A stretch of 43,851 bases of DNA, from the IMG/VR virus record IMGVR_UViG_2531839640_000007. One strand, written 5' to 3'. A program made the translations under genes and the position numbers. Of this stretch, positions 4,752 to 43,851 are shown piece by piece. Origin of the DNA: a virus (lineage: Duplodnaviria; Heunggongvirae; Uroviricota; Caudoviricetes). The notes below the pieces were generated by a model. That model made no database searches. It saw nothing but the letters and a program-made list of their open reading frames with translations, and was not told where the DNA came from. The first letter of the stretch is position 1, and each line of letters begins with the position of its first letter.

Positions 4752-4912
4752 ACAGCTCCCCGTTTATTATTTATCTCCTCAGCCAGCCGCTGTGCTTTCA
4801 GGGGATTTCGGATAACAGAAAGGCCGGGAAATACCCAGCCTCGCTTCGTAACGGAGTAGACGAAAGTGATCGTGCCTACCCGGATATTATCGTGAGGATG
4901 CTTCATCGCCAT
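4724..4912 (-). CDS. Lambda orf60a-like protein, 62 aa
   Basis: Position directly upstream of exo, overlapping its start; sequence recalled as lambda orf60a. Confidence 0.7.
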
Positions 4913-5583
4913 TGCTCCCCAAATACAAAACCAATTTCAGCCAGTGCCACGTCCATTTTTTCGATGAACTCCGGCACCATCTCGTCAAAATTCGCCATGT
5001 ACTTTTCATTCCGCTCAATCACGACATAATGCAGGCCTTCACGCTTCATACGCGGGTCATAGTTGGCAAAGTACCAGGCATCTTTTCGCGTCACCCACAT
5101 GCTGTACTGCACCTGGGCCATGTAAGCCGATTTTATGGCCTCGAAACCACCGAGCCGGAACTTCATGAAATCCCGGGAGGTAAACGGGCATTTCAGTTCA
5201 AGGCCGTTGCCGTCACTGCATAAACCATCGGGAGAGCAGGCGGTGCGCATACTTTCGTCGCGATAGATGATCGGGGATTCAGTAACATTCACGCCGGAAG
5301 TGAATTCAAACAGGGTTCTGGCGTCGTTCTCGTACTGTTTTCCCCAGGCCAGCGCCTTAGCATTAACTTCCGGAGCCACACCGGTGCAAACCTCAGCCAG
5401 CAGGGTGTGGAAGTAGGACATTTTCATGTCAGGCCACTTCTTTCCTGAGCGGGGCTTTGCTATCACGTTGTGAACTTCTGAAGCGGTGATGACGCCGAGC
5501 CGTAATTTGTGCCATGCATCATCCCCCTGTTCGACAGCTCTCACGTCGATCCCGGTACGCTGCAGGATAATGTCCGGTGTCAT
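4903..5583 (-). CDS. exo: Lambda exonuclease (Red-alpha), 226 aa
   Basis: Protein recognised as lambda Exo ([30 protein letters not shown]...). Confidence 0.97.
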
Positions 5584-6365
5584 GCTGCCACCTTCTGCTC
5601 AGTGGCTTTCTGTTTCAGGAATCCAAGAGCTTTCACTGCTTCGGCCTGTGTCAGTTCTGACGATGCGCGAATGTCGCGGCGAAATATCTGGGAACAGAGC
5701 GGCAATAAGTCGTCATCCCATGTTTTATCCAGGGCGATCAGCAGAGTGTTAATCTCCTGCATGGTTTCATCGTTAACCGGAGTGATGTCGCGTTCTGGCT
5801 GACGTTCTGCAGTGTATGCGGTATTTTCGACAATGCGCTCGGCTTCATCCTTGTCATAGATACCAGCAAATCCGAAGGCCAGACGGGCACACTGAATCAT
5901 GGCTTTATGCCGTAACATCCGTTTGGGATGCGACTGCCACGGCCCCGTGATTTCTCTGCCTTCGCGAGTTTTGAATGGTTCGCGGCGGCATTCATCCATC
6001 CATTCGGTAACGCAGATCGGATGATTACGGTCCTTGCGGTAAATCCGGCATGTACAGGATTCATTGTCCTGCTCAAAGTCCATGCCATCAAACTGCTGGT
6101 TTTCATTGATGATGCGGGACCAGCCATCAACGCCCACCACCGGAACGATGCCGTTCTGCTTATCAGGGAAGGCGTAAATTTCTTTCGTCCACGGATTAAG
6201 GCCGTACTGGTTGGCGACGATCAACAATGCGATGAACTGCGCATCGCTGGCATCACCTTTAAATGCCGTCTGGCGAAGAGTGGTGATCAGTTCCTGTGGG
6301 TCGACAGAATCCATGCCGACACGTTCAGCCAGCTTCCCTGCCAGCGTTGCGAGTGCTGTACTCAT
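5580..6365 (-). CDS. bet: Lambda Beta single-strand annealing protein (Red-beta), 261 aa
   Basis: Protein recognised as lambda Bet ([37 protein letters not shown]...). Confidence 0.97.
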
Positions 6366-6370
6366 CCGTT

Positions 6371-6667
6371 TTATACCTCTGAATCAATATCAACCTGGTG
6401 GTGAGCAATGGTTTCAACCATGTACTGGATGTGTTCTGCCATGCGCTCCTGAAACTCAACATCGTCATCAAACGCACGGGTAATGGCTTTTTTGCTGGCC
6501 CCGTGGCGTTGCAAATGATCGATGCATAGCGATTCAAACAGGTGCTGGGGCAGGCCTTTTTCCATGTCGTCTGCCAGTTCTGCCTCTTTCTCTTCACGGG
6601 CGATCTGCTGGTAGTGACGCGCCCAGCTCTGAGCCTCAAGACGATCCTGAATGTAATAAGCGTTCAT
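6371..6667 (-). CDS. gam: Gam RecBCD inhibitor, short GamS form (98 aa) with AGGAGG RBS; upstream extension of long form is frame-disrupted
   Basis: Protein recognised as lambda Gam C-terminal 98 aa ([21 protein letters not shown]...). Confidence 0.9.
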
Positions 6668-6742
6668 GGCTGACCTCCTGAAAATGGCTGTGAAAATATC
6701 GCCCGCGAAATGCCAGGCTGATTAGGAAAACAGGAAAGGGGA

Positions 6743-7033
6743 TTAGTGATTCAGGCCGTTACCGCGTCCGTCGAGAAAAACTTCCACGAGCAAATCACGG
6801 GTATAAGTGCGCTCGATGCCGCGATGCAGATAAAGCCGTCCGCGTAAATTAGCTGATGCAGTCCAGGTACCATCTTTGTGTTTGACCAGCATTCCTGGCA
6901 TGACCGCACCTCGATTAACGGTCTGCGTTCCATAATGTTGATGAACCATAAAAACTCCTGCCCGTAAGCTGGGCTGCTGAACATATAGAGACTTCTGCGC
7001 GTATTCAGGCGGTGGATGGCCGCCGGTTGTCAT
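6743..7033 (-). CDS. Hypothetical protein, 96 aa, first ORF downstream of the inferred pL (position where N sits in lambda); no arginine-rich motif
   Basis: ORF in operon orientation between gam and the pL operator region; no family recognised. Confidence 0.4.
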
Positions 7034-7239
7034 AACTAAGCCGCCTCGTTGAAGCGACTAAGGTATGAAATGTTGAGTTAATTTCAGCTGGTCACACCGA
7101 CGTTCACGCGTCCGTTTCACCCCTCGCACTCCCCGAAGCCTGCTGAAATTCAAACTGCGGATCTAAGCGGTCATCGCAACGGTGAATCAGGTAGTTGCCG
7201 TATCGTTGTGTTGTTGCGATGAACTTATTTAAAACTATA

Positions 7240-7259
7240 GTTGTTTTATCGTCAACAAC
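7240..7259. promoter_or_regulatory. Candidate OL operator: inverted repeat GTTGTT-ttatcgtc-AACAAC within a cluster of GTTGTT half-sites (7205-7290)
   Basis: Same GTTGTT-N8-AACAAC architecture as palindrome at pR; lies upstream of leftward early genes. Confidence 0.5.
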
Positions 7260-7402
7260 AAAAGTTGTTTTATTGGTTGTTTTAGATATAACTGGTTGTA
7301 TTTAGGATGGATTTATTTTGTGACTTGAATCGCATAGCGATAACTGAAGCGAGGTTATGGTGGTTTTTTAACGGTGTGTGTGTGATGAGGGGAGGGCAAA
7401 AG

Positions 7403-7426
7403 AAAACCCGGCACGGTGACCGGGAT
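7403..7426 (-). terminator. Hairpin CCCGG-N8-CCGGG followed by UUUUCUUUU on minus strand; likely terminator of repressor transcript
   Basis: GC stem plus T-run about 120 nt downstream of repressor stop. Confidence 0.45.
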
Positions 7427-7545
7427 TCTTACGCCGTTAGGTAAAGATATTATTGCGGTGGCTTAATATTACTACCTAGAGCAAAGATAGGAATTAGTTC
7501 TTTACTGAATGAGCACAATGCCCAGTTGATAATTTTTAATTGGTA

Positions 7546-8235
7546 CTACCCATGCTTCCTATATGTCTGCGGCATGCTCCCAATAACCTTACCGAAGATG
7601 AACACCCGGTTCATCTCGTCTTTCTCGATCGGGTCCCACGGTGAGTAGCTTTTGTTATCAGAGATGACCAGCAGCTTATCCTTCATCATTTGCAGGCGCT
7701 TTACATGGGCTGTGTCGTCGTACAGAAACGCATAGATACCATCACCGTCGAAAGATTTAACTGTGATATCAACGAACAGCAGATCACCTGGTTCGATCGT
7801 TCCTGACATGCTGTCACCACGCACGTTAATGATGCGGATATTTTCCGCCTTCCTACCATCGAACATGTGACGAGCATCGTCAAACGAGTACTCAACCGAG
7901 CGTAGAACTTCTACAAACTCACGGTTGATGACTCCCGGCCCAGCACTGACTTCTATATCAAGAACGTCAATCTTGAAGTATTTGGAATGGCTGACAGTTG
8001 ATTGTATTGGTTGCACTGTACTGTCTGACATATTTCCAACGCCAGAAGATAACCATTCTGCGCGCACACCCAAAGCGTTCGCGATCTCCACGATTTTAGT
8101 TGTTTGATTAGCTTTCCCTGTTTCGATTTTCTGAATAGCAGCCTGGCTAACCCCGACCAAATCCCCAAGCGCCTTTTGTGTAAGGCCTCGCGCTAATCTG
8201 GCTTCTTTAAGTCTTTCTGAGAGTGTTGTTTTCAT
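7546..8235 (-). CDS. CI-like prophage repressor, HTH (XRE) N-terminal domain plus S24 LexA-like autopeptidase C-terminal domain, about 229 aa; not lambda or 434 immunity
   Basis: HTH motif LTQKALGDLVGVSQAAIQKIETGK; S24 motifs GDSMSGT and KRL; divergent from cro-like gene across operator region; start taken at MKTTLSERL. Confidence 0.85.
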   Translation of the reverse strand: MKTTLSERLKEARLARGLTQKALGDLVGVSQAAIQKIETGKANQTTKIVEIANALGVRAEWLSSGVGNMSDSTVQPIQSTVSHSKYFKIDVLDIEVSAGPGVINREFVEVLRSVEYSFDDARHMFDGRKAENIRIINVRGDSMSGTIEPGDLLFVDITVKSFDGDGIYAFLYDDTAHVKRLQMMKDKLLVISDNKSYSPWDPIEKDEMNRVFIFGKVIGSMPQTYRKHG

Positions 8236-8276
8236 AGTCCAAATGTACAACCAAGGTTTTATCCCATCAAACGAAA

Positions 8277-8302
8277 ATGGTTGTTGACTAAAAAACAACC
8301 AT
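8277..8302. promoter_or_regulatory. Candidate OR operator: perfect palindrome ATGGTTGTT-gactaaaa-AACAACCAT overlapping a TTGACT -35 element (putative pR)
   Basis: 9-bp perfect inverted arms; TTGACT at 8284-8289 and TTTAAT about 16 bp downstream; located between divergent repressor and cro-like genes. Confidence 0.6.
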
Positions 8303-8340
8303 AGTTTTAATCTTGATTCAAATTAACCACGGAGGTTGTT

Positions 8341-8571
8341 ATGAACCCAGCTATCAAAACAGCGATCAATATCGTTGGTTCACAAAAGAAACTGGGCGCT
8401 GCTTGCGAAGTTTCACAGCAGGCCGTCTATAAGTGGCTTCACAACAAAGCAAAGGTATCCCCTGAACATGTCGGCAGCATTGTTACGGCTACTGGTGGAG
8501 TAGTGAAGGCATACCAGATTCGCCCGGATCTTCCGAAGTTGTTTCCACACACCGAAAAGAACGCAGCTTAA
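8341..8571 (+). CDS. Cro-like small HTH regulator, 76 aa
   Basis: First gene rightward of operator region, GGAGG RBS, HTH-like segment QKKLGAACEVSQQAVYKWL. Confidence 0.7.
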   Translation: MNPAIKTAINIVGSQKKLGAACEVSQQAVYKWLHNKAKVSPEHVGSIVTATGGVVKAYQIRPDLPKLFPHTEKNAA

Positions 8572-8583
8572 ATTTCCATTTCA

Positions 8584-43267: not shown

Positions 43268-43851
43268 TGGCATTCAGAATGAGTGAACAACCACGGACCA
43301 TAAAAATTTATAATCTGCTGGCCGGAACTAATGAATTTATTGGTGAAGGTGATGCATATATTCCGTCTCATACAGGTCTGCCAGCAAACAGTACCGATAT
43401 TGCACCGCCGGATATTCCGGCAGGCTTCGTGGCTGTTTTCAACAGTGATGAGGCATCGTGGCATCTCGTTGAAGACCATCGGGGTAAAACGGTTTATGAC
43501 GTGGCTTCCGGCGACGCGTTATTTATTTCTGAACTCGGTCCGTTACCGGAAAATGTTACCTGGTTGTCGCCGGGAGGGGAATATCAGAAGTGGAACGGCA
43601 CAGCCTGGGTGAAAGATGCAGAAGCAGAAAAACTGTTCCGGATCCGGGAGGCGGAAGAAACAAAAAACAGCCTGATGCAGGTAGCCAGTGAGCATATTGC
43701 GCCGCTTCAGGATGCTGCAGATCTGGAAATTGCAACGGAGGAAGAAACCTCGTTGCTGGAAGCCTGGAAGAAGTATCGGGTGTTGCTGAACCGTGTTAAT
43801 ACAACAACTGCACCGGATATTGAATGGCCAACAGTACCCATTATCGAATAG
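43267..43851 (+). CDS. tfa: Tail fibre assembly protein Tfa, 194 aa
   Basis: Recognised lambda Tfa ([37 protein letters not shown]...). Confidence 0.95.

What the first reader, a model, noticed from the sequence alone, without database searches (positions are those of the whole stretch)
7205..8338. Immunity region of non-lambda, non-434 specificity with GTTGTT-N8-AACAAC operators at both promoters
The repressor has an XRE-type HTH and an S24 autopeptidase domain (GDSM and KRL motifs) but does not match lambda or 434 CI as I recall them. The intergenic region to cro contains a perfect 26-bp palindrome ATGGTTGTTGACTAAAAAACAACCAT overlapping a TTGACT -35 box. A same-spacing inverted repeat GTTGTTttatcgtcAACAAC plus extra GTTGTT half-sites occurs about 1 kb to the left at the expected pL. 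The two-location repeat is read directly from the sequence and defines a candidate operator consensus.
Basis: seen in the sequence. Interest (0 to 1): 0.45.

Follow-up and report, generated by a model that had tools for sequence, protein, structure and literature searches.

The report
Lambdoid immunity switch with 434-like operators
This is an ordinary lambda-style prophage on/off switch.

Summary
The sequences are as described. GTTGTT-N8-AACAAC occurs exactly twice in the window, at 7240-7259 and 8280-8299. The second copy lies inside a perfect 26-bp palindrome over a TTGACT -35 box. The two regions are 48-nt inverted copies of each other and flank a repressor with HTH and S24 domains.

The proposed consensus is mis-phased. 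Comparison with 57 distinct homologous cI-cro spacers and 82 pL modules shows the conserved unit is a 14-mer, ACAAC-N4-GTT(G/T)T. Its spacing never varies. The GTTGT-to-ACAAC distance across the -35 box is 9 bp in most relatives and 10 bp here.

Window sites are OR3 8247-8260, OR2 8271-8284, OR1 8295-8308, OL1 7231-7244 and OL2 7255-7268. A likely OL3 lies at 7286-7299. The promoter and operator layout is lambda-like.

The repressor's N-terminal domain is a 434-repressor homologue (37% identity). Sister phages with an identical C-terminal domain but a different recognition helix carry ATACG-N4-CGTAT sites in the same layout.

This immunity type sits in about 19% of complete E. coli genomes. 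I found no experimental description. It is a new member of a known kind, of modest interest.

The parts
7546..8235 (-). cI-type repressor, 229 aa. It has a 434-like HTH N-terminal domain (recognition helix S30-Q-A-A-I-Q-K36) and an S24 autopeptidase C-terminal domain (Ala98-Gly99, Ser142, Lys179).
   Evidence: Pfam HTH_3 and Peptidase_S24. PDB 434 repressor E 4.5e-9 and 37% identity. PHROG 4, transcriptional repressor. The ATG at 8235 is supported by the conserved MKTTL start in homologues. Some public records start it at the upstream TTG at 8298.
8341..8571 (+). cro, 76 aa, YdaS-type HTH. Its recognition helix SQQAVYKW resembles that of CI.
   Evidence: Pfam YdaS_toxin 4.1e-17 and P22_Cro. 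PHROG 35. YdaS was shown to act like Cro in CP-933P (PMC8630535).
8295..8308 (.). OR1, ACAACCATAGTTTT. It lies in the pR spacer, and its last T is the first base of the -10.
   Evidence: conserved as ACAAC-N4-GTTTT in all relatives.
8271..8284 (.). OR2, ACGAAAATGGTTGT. The right half is consensus and the left half is weak. It sits between the -35 boxes of pRM and pR.
   Evidence: Alignment of 57 distinct spacers. In one subfamily the good half is the left one instead.
8247..8260 (.). OR3, ACAACCAAGGTTTT, in the pRM spacer.
   Evidence: It is a perfect ACAAC-N4-GTTGT with a variable centre in Providencia, Morganella, Photorhabdus and Xenorhabdus relatives.
8326..8339 (.). Candidate fourth site 'O4', ACCACGGAGGTTGT, over the cro Shine-Dalgarno sequence, about +6 to +20 from the pR start.
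   Evidence: 47 of 57 distinct spacers have at most 1 mismatch here, against 4.5% in a control that keeps the SD fixed. The heteroimmune sister family has an ATACC/ATACT half-site at the same place. Caveat: lambda cro has ACTAAGGAGGTTGT before its ATG, so the right half may be inherited ribosome-binding sequence.
8284..8313 (+). pR: -35 TTGACT at 8284-8289, an 18-bp spacer, and -10 TAATCT at 8308-8313.
   Evidence: Read from the sequence. Relatives have a 17-bp spacer and TATTAT or TAATAT at the same place. The strict consensus scan did not call it.
8242..8270 (-). pRM: -35 TTGATG (8270 to 8265), a 17-bp spacer, and -10 TACATT (8247 to 8242). The cI mRNA would be leaderless or nearly so.
   Evidence: Read from the sequence. 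The TTG of the -35 and a TAnnTT -10 are conserved in the alignment. This is an inference; no transcript data are available.
7231..7244 (.). OL1 (minus strand ACAACTATAGTTTT), in the pL spacer.
7255..7268 (.). OL2, ACAACAAAAGTTGT, a perfect 14-mer abutting the pL -35 box.
   Evidence: It lies 24 bp from OL1 in every relative.
7286..7299 (.). Candidate OL3 (minus strand ACAACCAGTTATAT), with one good half-site.
   Evidence: An ACAAC lies 31 bp upstream of OL2 in 56 of 82 distinct pL modules. 434 has the same OL2-OL3 distance of 31 bp.
7276..7280 (.). Lone extra half-site GTTGT between OL3 and OL2.
   Evidence: Position -12 in 25 of 82 pL modules. Its role is unknown.
7226..7255 (-). pL: -35 TTGACG (7255 to 7250) and -10 TTAAAT or TAAATA (7232 to 7226).
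   Evidence: Read from the sequence. The module ACAAC-N4-GTTGT-TGACn-N5-ACAAC-N4-GTTTT-(A/T)AAT is conserved.
7407..7424 (-). Intrinsic terminator after cI (CCCGG-loop-CCGGG followed by TTTTCTTTT).
8277..8302 (.). It is made of the centre and right half of OR2, the pR -35 box, and the left half and centre of OR1.
7240..7259 (.). It is made of the inner halves of OL1 and OL2 around the pL -35 box.

Best explanation
This is a lambda-type bistable immunity switch whose DNA-recognition module is of the 434 type.

Binding: CI dimers, and Cro, which carries a similar recognition helix, bind 14-bp sites of consensus ACAAC-N4-GTT(G/T)T. The central four bases vary and are probably not contacted.

At OR:
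- OR1 sits in the pR spacer and touches the -10.
- OR2 abuts the pR -35 on one side and the pRM -35 on the other.
- OR3 sits in the pRM spacer.

CI on OR1 and OR2 would shut pR, and CI on OR2 would probably stimulate pRM. OR3 would give negative autoregulation and would be Cro's route to shutting pRM. The OR sites start 24 bp apart here, close to the 23 and 24 bp annotated in lambda, so adjacent dimers could bind cooperatively.

At pL, OL1 and OL2 have the same arrangement as OR1 and OR2, and a weaker OL3 lies 31 bp further upstream.

Induction would follow RecA-stimulated self-cleavage at Ala98-Gly99 by the Ser142/Lys179 dyad.

Shown here: the sites, their conservation, their invariant internal spacing, and their co-variation with the recognition helix. 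Inferred by analogy with lambda and 434: binding itself, cooperativity, pRM activation, order of occupancy and cleavage.
For: (1) ACAAC-N4-GTTGT with at most 1 mismatch gives 5 hits in the window, all in the two control regions; 1.47 were expected and 0 of 100 shuffles reached 5.
(2) In 17 homologous spacers retrieved through the protein alone, ACAAC-Nk-GTT(G/T)T is present at k=4 in all 17. GTTGT-Nk-ACAAC is at k=9 in 12, k=10 in 2, and k=5 and k=6 in one each.
(3) In the alignment of 57 distinct spacers, conservation peaks on the half-sites and promoter hexamers, and the 4-bp centres vary.
(4) A scan of viral contigs with a pure DNA pattern found 120 loci. In 79 a repressor with helix SQAAIQKIE sits next to pR, and most of the rest carry SQAAIQKL or TQASIQKL.
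(5) Co-variation: Perceval, PhiR30_1, Lambda_4C10 and L004 have CI proteins 81% identical overall (Perceval), with the C-terminal domain identical from about residue 84. Their helix is AQPTIWRL, and their spacers carry ATACG-N4-CGTAT-type 14-mers in the same layout. L004 has no ACAAC 14-mer at all.
(6) The N-terminal domain aligns end to end with the 434 repressor. The annotated 434 operators are 14-mers of the form ACAA-N6-TTGT, start 22-23 bp apart, and have OL3 31 bp from OL2.
(7) Lambda's annotated OR has the same relation of OR2 and OR1 to the pR -35 and -10 boxes, with starts 23 and 24 bp apart.
(8) Lys36 occupies the helix position of 434 Gln33. In the 933W repressor a lysine is modelled to read the invariant C.G at operator position 5 (PMC3317979). 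If that lysine is the equivalent residue, which the paper's residue superposition suggests but I did not check by alignment, it fits the invariant C5/G10 here.
(9) S24 motifs and the Ala-Gly cleavage site are present.
Against: No binding, footprint or transcript data exist for this repressor in anything I could search.

The strict sigma-70 consensus scan did not call pR, pRM or pL, because their -10 hexamers are weak in this allele.

OR2 and the proposed OL3 each have only one good half-site, so their assignment rests on position and analogy.

The viral loci were retrieved with a pattern that already contained part of the motif, so only the 17 protein-derived loci are an unbiased sample. The homologues are also phylogenetically related, so counts overstate independence.

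In the E. coli lineage the everted repeat has perfect 9-bp arms, which a pure by-product model does not require.
Confidence: 0.8

Rival explanations
1. One reading: one CI dimer binds a 20-26-bp operator, GTTGTT-N8-AACAAC, centred on the -35 box, with one such site at pR and one at pL.
For: There are two exact copies in the window and nowhere else. At pR the arms are a perfect 9 bp. The pL spacing is constant in relatives.
Against: The spacing at pR is N7 in most relatives and N8 here. The half-site centres are about 14 bp apart, whereas 434 half-sites are about 10 bp apart. The arm is lost in a subfamily that keeps the same DNA-contacting helix residues. The model leaves the conserved OR3 and the outer GTTTT halves unexplained.
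Confidence: 0.07
2. Both readings are functional. CI uses the 14-mers, and the everted repeat across the -35 box is an additional site for Cro (YdaS-type, possibly with a different dimer geometry) or for a CI tetramer.
For: Cro belongs to a different HTH family (YdaS/P22 Cro) but has a similar recognition helix. In CP-933P, overlapping inverted and direct repeats were both noted in the footprinted region (PMC8630535).
Against: The everted spacing varies between 9 and 10 bp. The everted symmetry is absent from the heteroimmune sister family and from the L039/L128 subfamily.
Confidence: 0.06
3. The palindrome acts as an RNA hairpin or weak terminator on leftward transcripts entering cI, or is a chance feature.
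For: The terminator scan lists it on both strands. The hairpin energy is -9 to -11 kcal/mol, with z about -3.3 to -3.5.
Against: It lies upstream of the pR start, so it is not in the pR transcript. Terminating establishment transcripts before cI would defeat their purpose. The stem is AU-rich. The same words recur at pL and co-vary with the repressor helix, which points to protein binding.
Confidence: 0.02

Closest known systems
Phage 434 immunity region (CI, Cro, six 14-bp operators)
   Same: The five-helix HTH N-terminal domain is homologous (37% identity). Both have an S24 C-terminal domain. Both use 14-bp operators with outer ACAA...TTGT and a variable centre. Neighbouring sites start 22-24 bp apart and OL3 lies 31 bp from OL2. 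CI and Cro share recognition-helix residues.
   Different: The helix is QAAIQK here against QQSIEQ in 434. Operator position 5 is always C here and is G, T or A in 434. Position 2 tolerates A in one half-site (GTTTT). pR has its -35 between OR2 and OR1 as in lambda, whereas 434 has it between OR3 and OR2. Cro is YdaS-type and the 'CII' is YdaT-type.
Phage lambda OR/OL switch
   Same: cI and cro are divergent. OR2 overlaps the pR -35, OR1 lies in the spacer and touches the -10, and OR3 lies over pRM, with site starts 23 and 24 bp apart. Some relatives' pL regions carry the words TTGACATAAATAC and CATCAGCAGGACGC, which I recall from lambda pL; I did not fetch lambda pL to check this. A leaderless cI mRNA is likely.
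   Different: Lambda has 17-bp operators and an unrelated recognition code. There are no rexAB genes and no N gene next to pL here.
933W repressor (Stx phage)
   Same: A 434-like N-terminal domain. A lysine in the recognition helix (K46) is modelled to read an invariant C.G at operator position 5 and A.T at position 4 (PMC3317979). It may correspond to Lys36 here; I inferred this from the paper's residue superposition and did not align the proteins.
   Different: 933W has 15-bp operators with a different outer sequence, shows no cooperativity and has no OL3 (PMC3317979). None of these properties was tested here.
CP-933P PaaR2-YdaS-YdaT switch
   Same: YdaS acts like Cro and YdaT like CII. The repressor mRNA is leaderless. 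Four repeats were found in the spacer (PMC8630535), which parallels the candidate fourth site here.
   Different: PaaR2 lacks an S24 domain and has no sequence similarity to CI. Its operator word is GTTTAGTAA.
Heteroimmune sister phages (Perceval, PhiR30_1, Lambda_4C10)
   Same: The CI C-terminal domain is identical from about residue 84. The gene order is the same, and so is the four-site layout between cI and cro.
   Different: The recognition helix is AQPTIWRL and the operators are ATACG-N4-CGTAT. This pair amounts to a natural helix swap.

Membership tests
LexA/CI-type S24 self-cleaving repressors | A C-terminal Peptidase_S24 domain with a Ser-Lys dyad | tested here: met
   Pfam PF00717, 1.2e-18, residues 95-218. 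GDSM Ser142 and VKRL Lys179 are in the translation. Matches to UmuD structures.
LexA/CI-type S24 self-cleaving repressors | An Ala-Gly cleavage site in the linker | tested here: met
   EVS-A98-G99-PG in the translation. It is identical in Perceval CI.
LexA/CI-type S24 self-cleaving repressors | RecA-stimulated autocleavage | not testable with these tools
   This needs a cleavage assay or an induction experiment.
434-type repressor/operator system | An N-terminal HTH domain homologous to 434 repressor residues 1-69 | tested here: met
   phmmer against the PDB: 1per/2or1 E 4.5e-9, residues 5-68 against 2-65, without gaps. BLASTP: 24 of 65 residues identical.
434-type repressor/operator system | 14-bp dyad operators with contacted outer bases and a variable 4-6-bp centre | tested here: met
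   ACAAC-N4-GTT(G/T)T is conserved with invariant spacing and variable centres. This is the same format as the annotated 434 sites.
434-type repressor/operator system | The same specificity as 434, that is homoimmunity: recognition helix QQSIEQ and operators ACAA(G/T/A)-N4-(A/T/C)TTGT | tested here: not met
   The helix is QAAIQK, differing at 4 of 6 positions. Position 5 is C in every good half-site and never C in 434. Only OL2 fits ACAA-N6-TTGT. Actual cross-binding was not tested.
Lambda-type bistable switch | Divergent repressor and cro genes with a tripartite operator overlapping pR and pRM, plus a second operator set at pL | tested here: met
   Gene order and sites. Comparison with the annotated lambda OR.
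Lambda-type bistable switch | Cooperative binding at sites 1 and 2, pRM activation from OR2, and Cro preference for OR3 | not testable with these tools
   Only the spacing (24 bp between site starts) and the position of OR2 against both -35 boxes are consistent with this.
   The N8 form is in 2 of 17 protein-derived spacers and 4 of 57 distinct spacers. The N7 form is in 6 of 17 and 28 of 57. The repeat is absent where the right half of OR2 is degenerate.

The most novel reading that the evidence does not exclude
OR may have four operators rather than three. A 14-mer resembling the operator (ACCACGGAGGTTGT, 8326-8339) wraps the cro Shine-Dalgarno sequence at about +6 to +20 of pR. It is kept in most relatives. 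In the heteroimmune sister family its left half changes to that family's own half-site (ATACC/ATACT). If CI or Cro binds there, switches with a YdaS-type Cro would share a four-site design, also hinted at in CP-933P, in which the repressor sits on the start of the cro message as well as on the promoter.
Probability: 0.3. Interest if true: 0.4.

Novelty: new member of a known kind. Interest (0 to 1): 0.28.

Why it matters
This immunity type is common. At least 80% of the 7200-8345 stretch is present in 1049 of 5426 complete E. coli genomes, including the O104:H4 outbreak lineage. Relatives occur in Klebsiella, Providencia, Morganella, Photorhabdus and Xenorhabdus. A correct operator definition allows several things:
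- prophages can be assigned to this immunity group from sequence alone;
- superinfection immunity between co-resident prophages can be predicted;
- clean EMSA or footprint probes can be designed.

The window's CI and that of Perceval-type phages have identical C-terminal domains but different HTH segments and operators. They form a ready-made natural pair for studying how specificity is encoded in 434-type domains. None of this changes how such switches are understood to work.

Tried and rejected
- Rfam on the whole window (gathering threshold) and on 6650-8700 (E up to 1) found nothing in the region. No known RNA element explains the repeats.
- I folded the 189-nt pL leader (7222 to 7034) to look for a put-like antitermination RNA. 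It is no more stable than shuffled sequence (z -0.54), and I did not pursue it.
- The consensus promoter scan called none of pR, pRM or pL. The promoter assignments therefore rest on conserved TTGnnn and TAnnnT positions in the alignment.
- Literature searches for the phage names, for ACAAC/GTTGT with operator and repressor, and for six exact operator strings found nothing relevant.
- I first treated the site over the cro SD as a solid fourth operator. I downgraded it after seeing that lambda cro has ACTAAGGAGGTTGT in the same place.
- I looked for a conserved operator-like site downstream of the pL start. The tandem ACAACACAAC at 7205-7214 is lineage-specific and not conserved.
- My first regular expression for pL modules had the wrong gap length and returned one locus. 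It was corrected.
Full report
**Setting.** The window is a lambdoid prophage. On the minus strand lie exo (4903-5583), bet (5580-6365), gam (6371-6667) and a kil homologue (6743-7033; PHROG 294). Next comes the region in question, with a 229-aa repressor on the minus strand (7546-8235). On the plus strand lie cro (8341-8571), a YdaT-type 'cII' (8641-9180) and the replication genes O and P. The repressor has Pfam HTH_3 and Peptidase_S24 domains. Its translation shows Ala98-Gly99, GDSM (Ser142) and VKRL (Lys179). Cro matches the YdaS family. YdaS and YdaT have been shown experimentally to act like Cro and CII in the cryptic prophage CP-933P (PMC8630535).

- GTTGTT-N8-AACAAC occurs exactly twice in 43.8 kb, at 7240-7259 and 8280-8299. 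With up to one mismatch allowed, 0.17 matches were expected.
- The second copy is the core of a perfect 26-bp palindrome (8277-8302) that contains TTGACT (8284-8289).
- The two regions are 48-nt inverted copies of each other at 79% complementarity. This is what a pL/pR pair sharing operators looks like.

**A second reading of the same repeats.** The half-sites also pair the other way round, as ACAAC-N4-GTTGT. With up to one mismatch this 14-mer has five hits in the window, all in the two control regions; 1.47 were expected and no shuffle reached five.

| Site | Coordinates | Sequence (plus strand) |
|---|---|---|
| OL1 | 7231-7244 | AAAACTATAGTTGT |
| OL2 | 7255-7268 | ACAACAAAAGTTGT (perfect) |
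| OR3 | 8247-8260 | ACAACCAAGGTTTT |
| OR2 | 8271-8284 | ACGAAAATGGTTGT (one strong half) |
| OR1 | 8295-8308 | ACAACCATAGTTTT |
| O4 (candidate) | 8326-8339 | ACCACGGAGGTTGT |

OR2 is not among the five hits, because its left half has two mismatches. With it included, both control regions have sites whose starts are 24 bp apart.

**Which phasing is real?** I used relatives to decide.
- A protein-based scan of one genome per species returned loci with repressors 25-80% identical, from Klebsiella, Kosakonia, Providencia, Morganella, Photorhabdus, Xenorhabdus and others.
- All loci whose repressor keeps the helix SQAAIQKIE keep the same layout between cI and cro. OR3 becomes a perfect ACAAC-N4-GTTGT with a freely varying centre (TTCA, CTCG, CATG, TGTA). 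OR1 stays ACAAC-N4-GTTTT. OR2 keeps one good half.
- In the 17 spacers found through the protein alone, ACAAC-Nk-GTT(G/T)T is present at k=4 in all 17. GTTGT-Nk-ACAAC is at k=9 in 12 and at k=10 in 2.
- The window has one extra A in the run 8290-8295. PhiR34_1 and most E. coli copies lack it. The match in spacing between the pR and pL repeats is therefore a property of this rare allele.
- A pure DNA-pattern scan of viral contigs gave 120 loci. In 79 of them a repressor with SQAAIQKIE lies next to pR. Nearly all the others are pL modules whose repressors carry SQAAIQKL or TQASIQKL.
- In that subfamily OR2 reads ACAACTAAAGTGGT. Its good half is the left one, so the everted palindrome is gone while all three 14-mers persist.
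- The alignment of 57 distinct spacers shows conservation on the half-sites and on the promoter hexamers, and not on the 4-bp centres.

**Co-variation with the recognition helix.** L004 (Raoultella), Perceval, PhiR30_1 and Lambda_4C10 encode CI proteins whose C-terminal domain is identical to the window's from about residue 84. Perceval CI is 81% identical overall. Their helix is AQPTIWRL, and their Cro carries AQPTVWRW. Their spacers carry ATACGCTTGCGTAT, ACACGTTTTGCTAT and ATACGCATTGCTAT at the positions of OR3, OR2 and OR1. L004 has no ACAAC 14-mer at all. The specificity module is thus the HTH segment together with the 14-mers.

**Relation to 434 and lambda.**
- The N-terminal domain aligns without gaps to the 434 repressor (E 4.5e-9; 24 of 65 residues identical).
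- The annotated 434 genome lists six 14-bp operators of the form ACAA(G/T/A)-N4-(A/T/C)TTGT. Their starts are 22-23 bp apart, and OL3 is 31 bp from OL2.
- The site format here is the same, but position 5 is always C and one half often reads AAAAC.
- On the protein side, 434 Gln28 is kept (Gln31), Gln29 becomes Ala32 and Gln33 becomes Lys36. Established 434 structural work assigns Gln29 to position 2 and Gln33 to positions 4 and 5.
- A lysine in the 933W repressor is modelled to read C.G at position 5 (PMC3317979). Whether it is the residue equivalent to Lys36 was not checked by alignment.
- The relaxed position 2 and the fixed C5 would fit these changes. This is an inference.
- The placement of promoters is lambda-like rather than 434-like. 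OR2 ends on the first base of the pR -35, and OR1 fills the spacer and ends on the first base of the -10. On the other strand, the pRM -35 (TTGATG, 8270 to 8265) abuts OR2, and OR3 fills the 17-bp spacer up to TACATT (8247 to 8242). That would start the cI message at or next to its ATG.
- pL repeats the pR design: TTGACG at 7255 to 7250, OL1 in the spacer and OL2 upstream.
- An ACAAC lies 31 bp upstream of OL2 in 56 of 82 distinct pL modules. This marks a probable weak OL3 at 7286-7299.

**Mechanism.** The best-supported account is a standard CI/Cro switch. CI dimers bind OR1 and OR2, and OL1 and OL2, probably cooperatively, and repress pR and pL. CI at OR2 touches RNA polymerase at pRM. OR3 limits CI synthesis and is Cro's target. 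SOS-induced self-cleavage at Ala98-Gly99 flips the switch. The sites, their conservation and their co-variation are shown here. Binding, cooperativity, activation and cleavage are inferred from the families involved.

**A possible fourth site.** The 14-mer over the cro SD has at most one mismatch in 47 of 57 distinct spacers, against 4.5% in a control that keeps the SD fixed. The sister family has its own half-site word there. However, lambda cro is preceded by ACTAAGGAGGTTGT, so the right half may simply be an inherited ribosome-binding region. I rate this site at about 0.3.

**How common and how new.**
- At least 80% of 7200-8345 is present in 1049 of 5426 complete E. coli genomes, the best matches being O104:H4 strains at 99.9% identity.
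- In the phage collection, six records match the cI-cro part at high identity. Three of them (PhiR34_1, Turner, PhiR26_1) cover at least 80% of the 7000-8650 query. The annotation is generic in all six, and none is a classical phage.
- I found no paper that describes this repressor or its operators.
- It is a new, widespread member of a well-understood kind. The main correction to the finding is the operator phasing.

Noticed in passing
window 7034-7230 and 6743-7033: There is no N-like antiterminator gene between pL and the first leftward gene, which is a kil homologue (PHROG 294). Some relatives with the same operators have a lambda-like leader with a boxA-like GCTCTTTAAC, but this lineage does not. 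A 60-nt stretch (7010-7070) matches the phi80 early region. The 189-nt leader is no more structured than shuffled sequence.
   Followed up: partly
window 8290-8295: This allele has one more A than PhiR34_1 and most same-immunity relatives. That gives pR an 18-bp spacer instead of 17 and puts the OR2 and OR1 starts 24 bp apart instead of 23. It may weaken pR or change cooperativity.
   Followed up: partly
window 8236-8298: Some public records and the 1273-member protein cluster P0001 start cI at the upstream TTG (250-251 aa). That start would run through OR3, OR2 and the pR -35 box. Homologue alignments support ATG 8235 (229 aa), as annotated in PhiR26_1.
   Followed up: yes
window 7300-7545; L002 2431-2811: The gap between pL and the end of cI is the rexAB position of lambda. 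It is minimal here, about 250 bp holding only a terminator. In relatives the pL-to-pR distance varies from 951 to 3065 bp, and PhiR26_1 has a lipoprotein gene there. It appears to be a cargo (moron) insertion site.
   Followed up: partly
window 7546-7998 against L159-L161: The CI C-terminal domain is shared at 95-100% identity with heteroimmune phages (Perceval, 4A7, Lambda_4C10, D2, 1W, 3W). The DNA match ends at about window 7998, near residue 79, and the proteins are identical from about residue 84. The HTH segment, OR and cro therefore move as one exchangeable module.
   Followed up: yes
window 7205-7214: Tandem half-sites GTTGTGTTGT (minus strand ACAACACAAC) lie at about +5 to +14 of the pL transcript. 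They are present in the E. coli lineage, and a single ACAAC occurs there in one Klebsiella-type lineage. Other relatives lack them. Their function, if any, is unknown.
   Followed up: partly
window 43610-43808: A full-length Rfam IS009 small-RNA match (227 bits, E 8e-56) lies at the right end of the window. I did not look at its surroundings.
   Followed up: no
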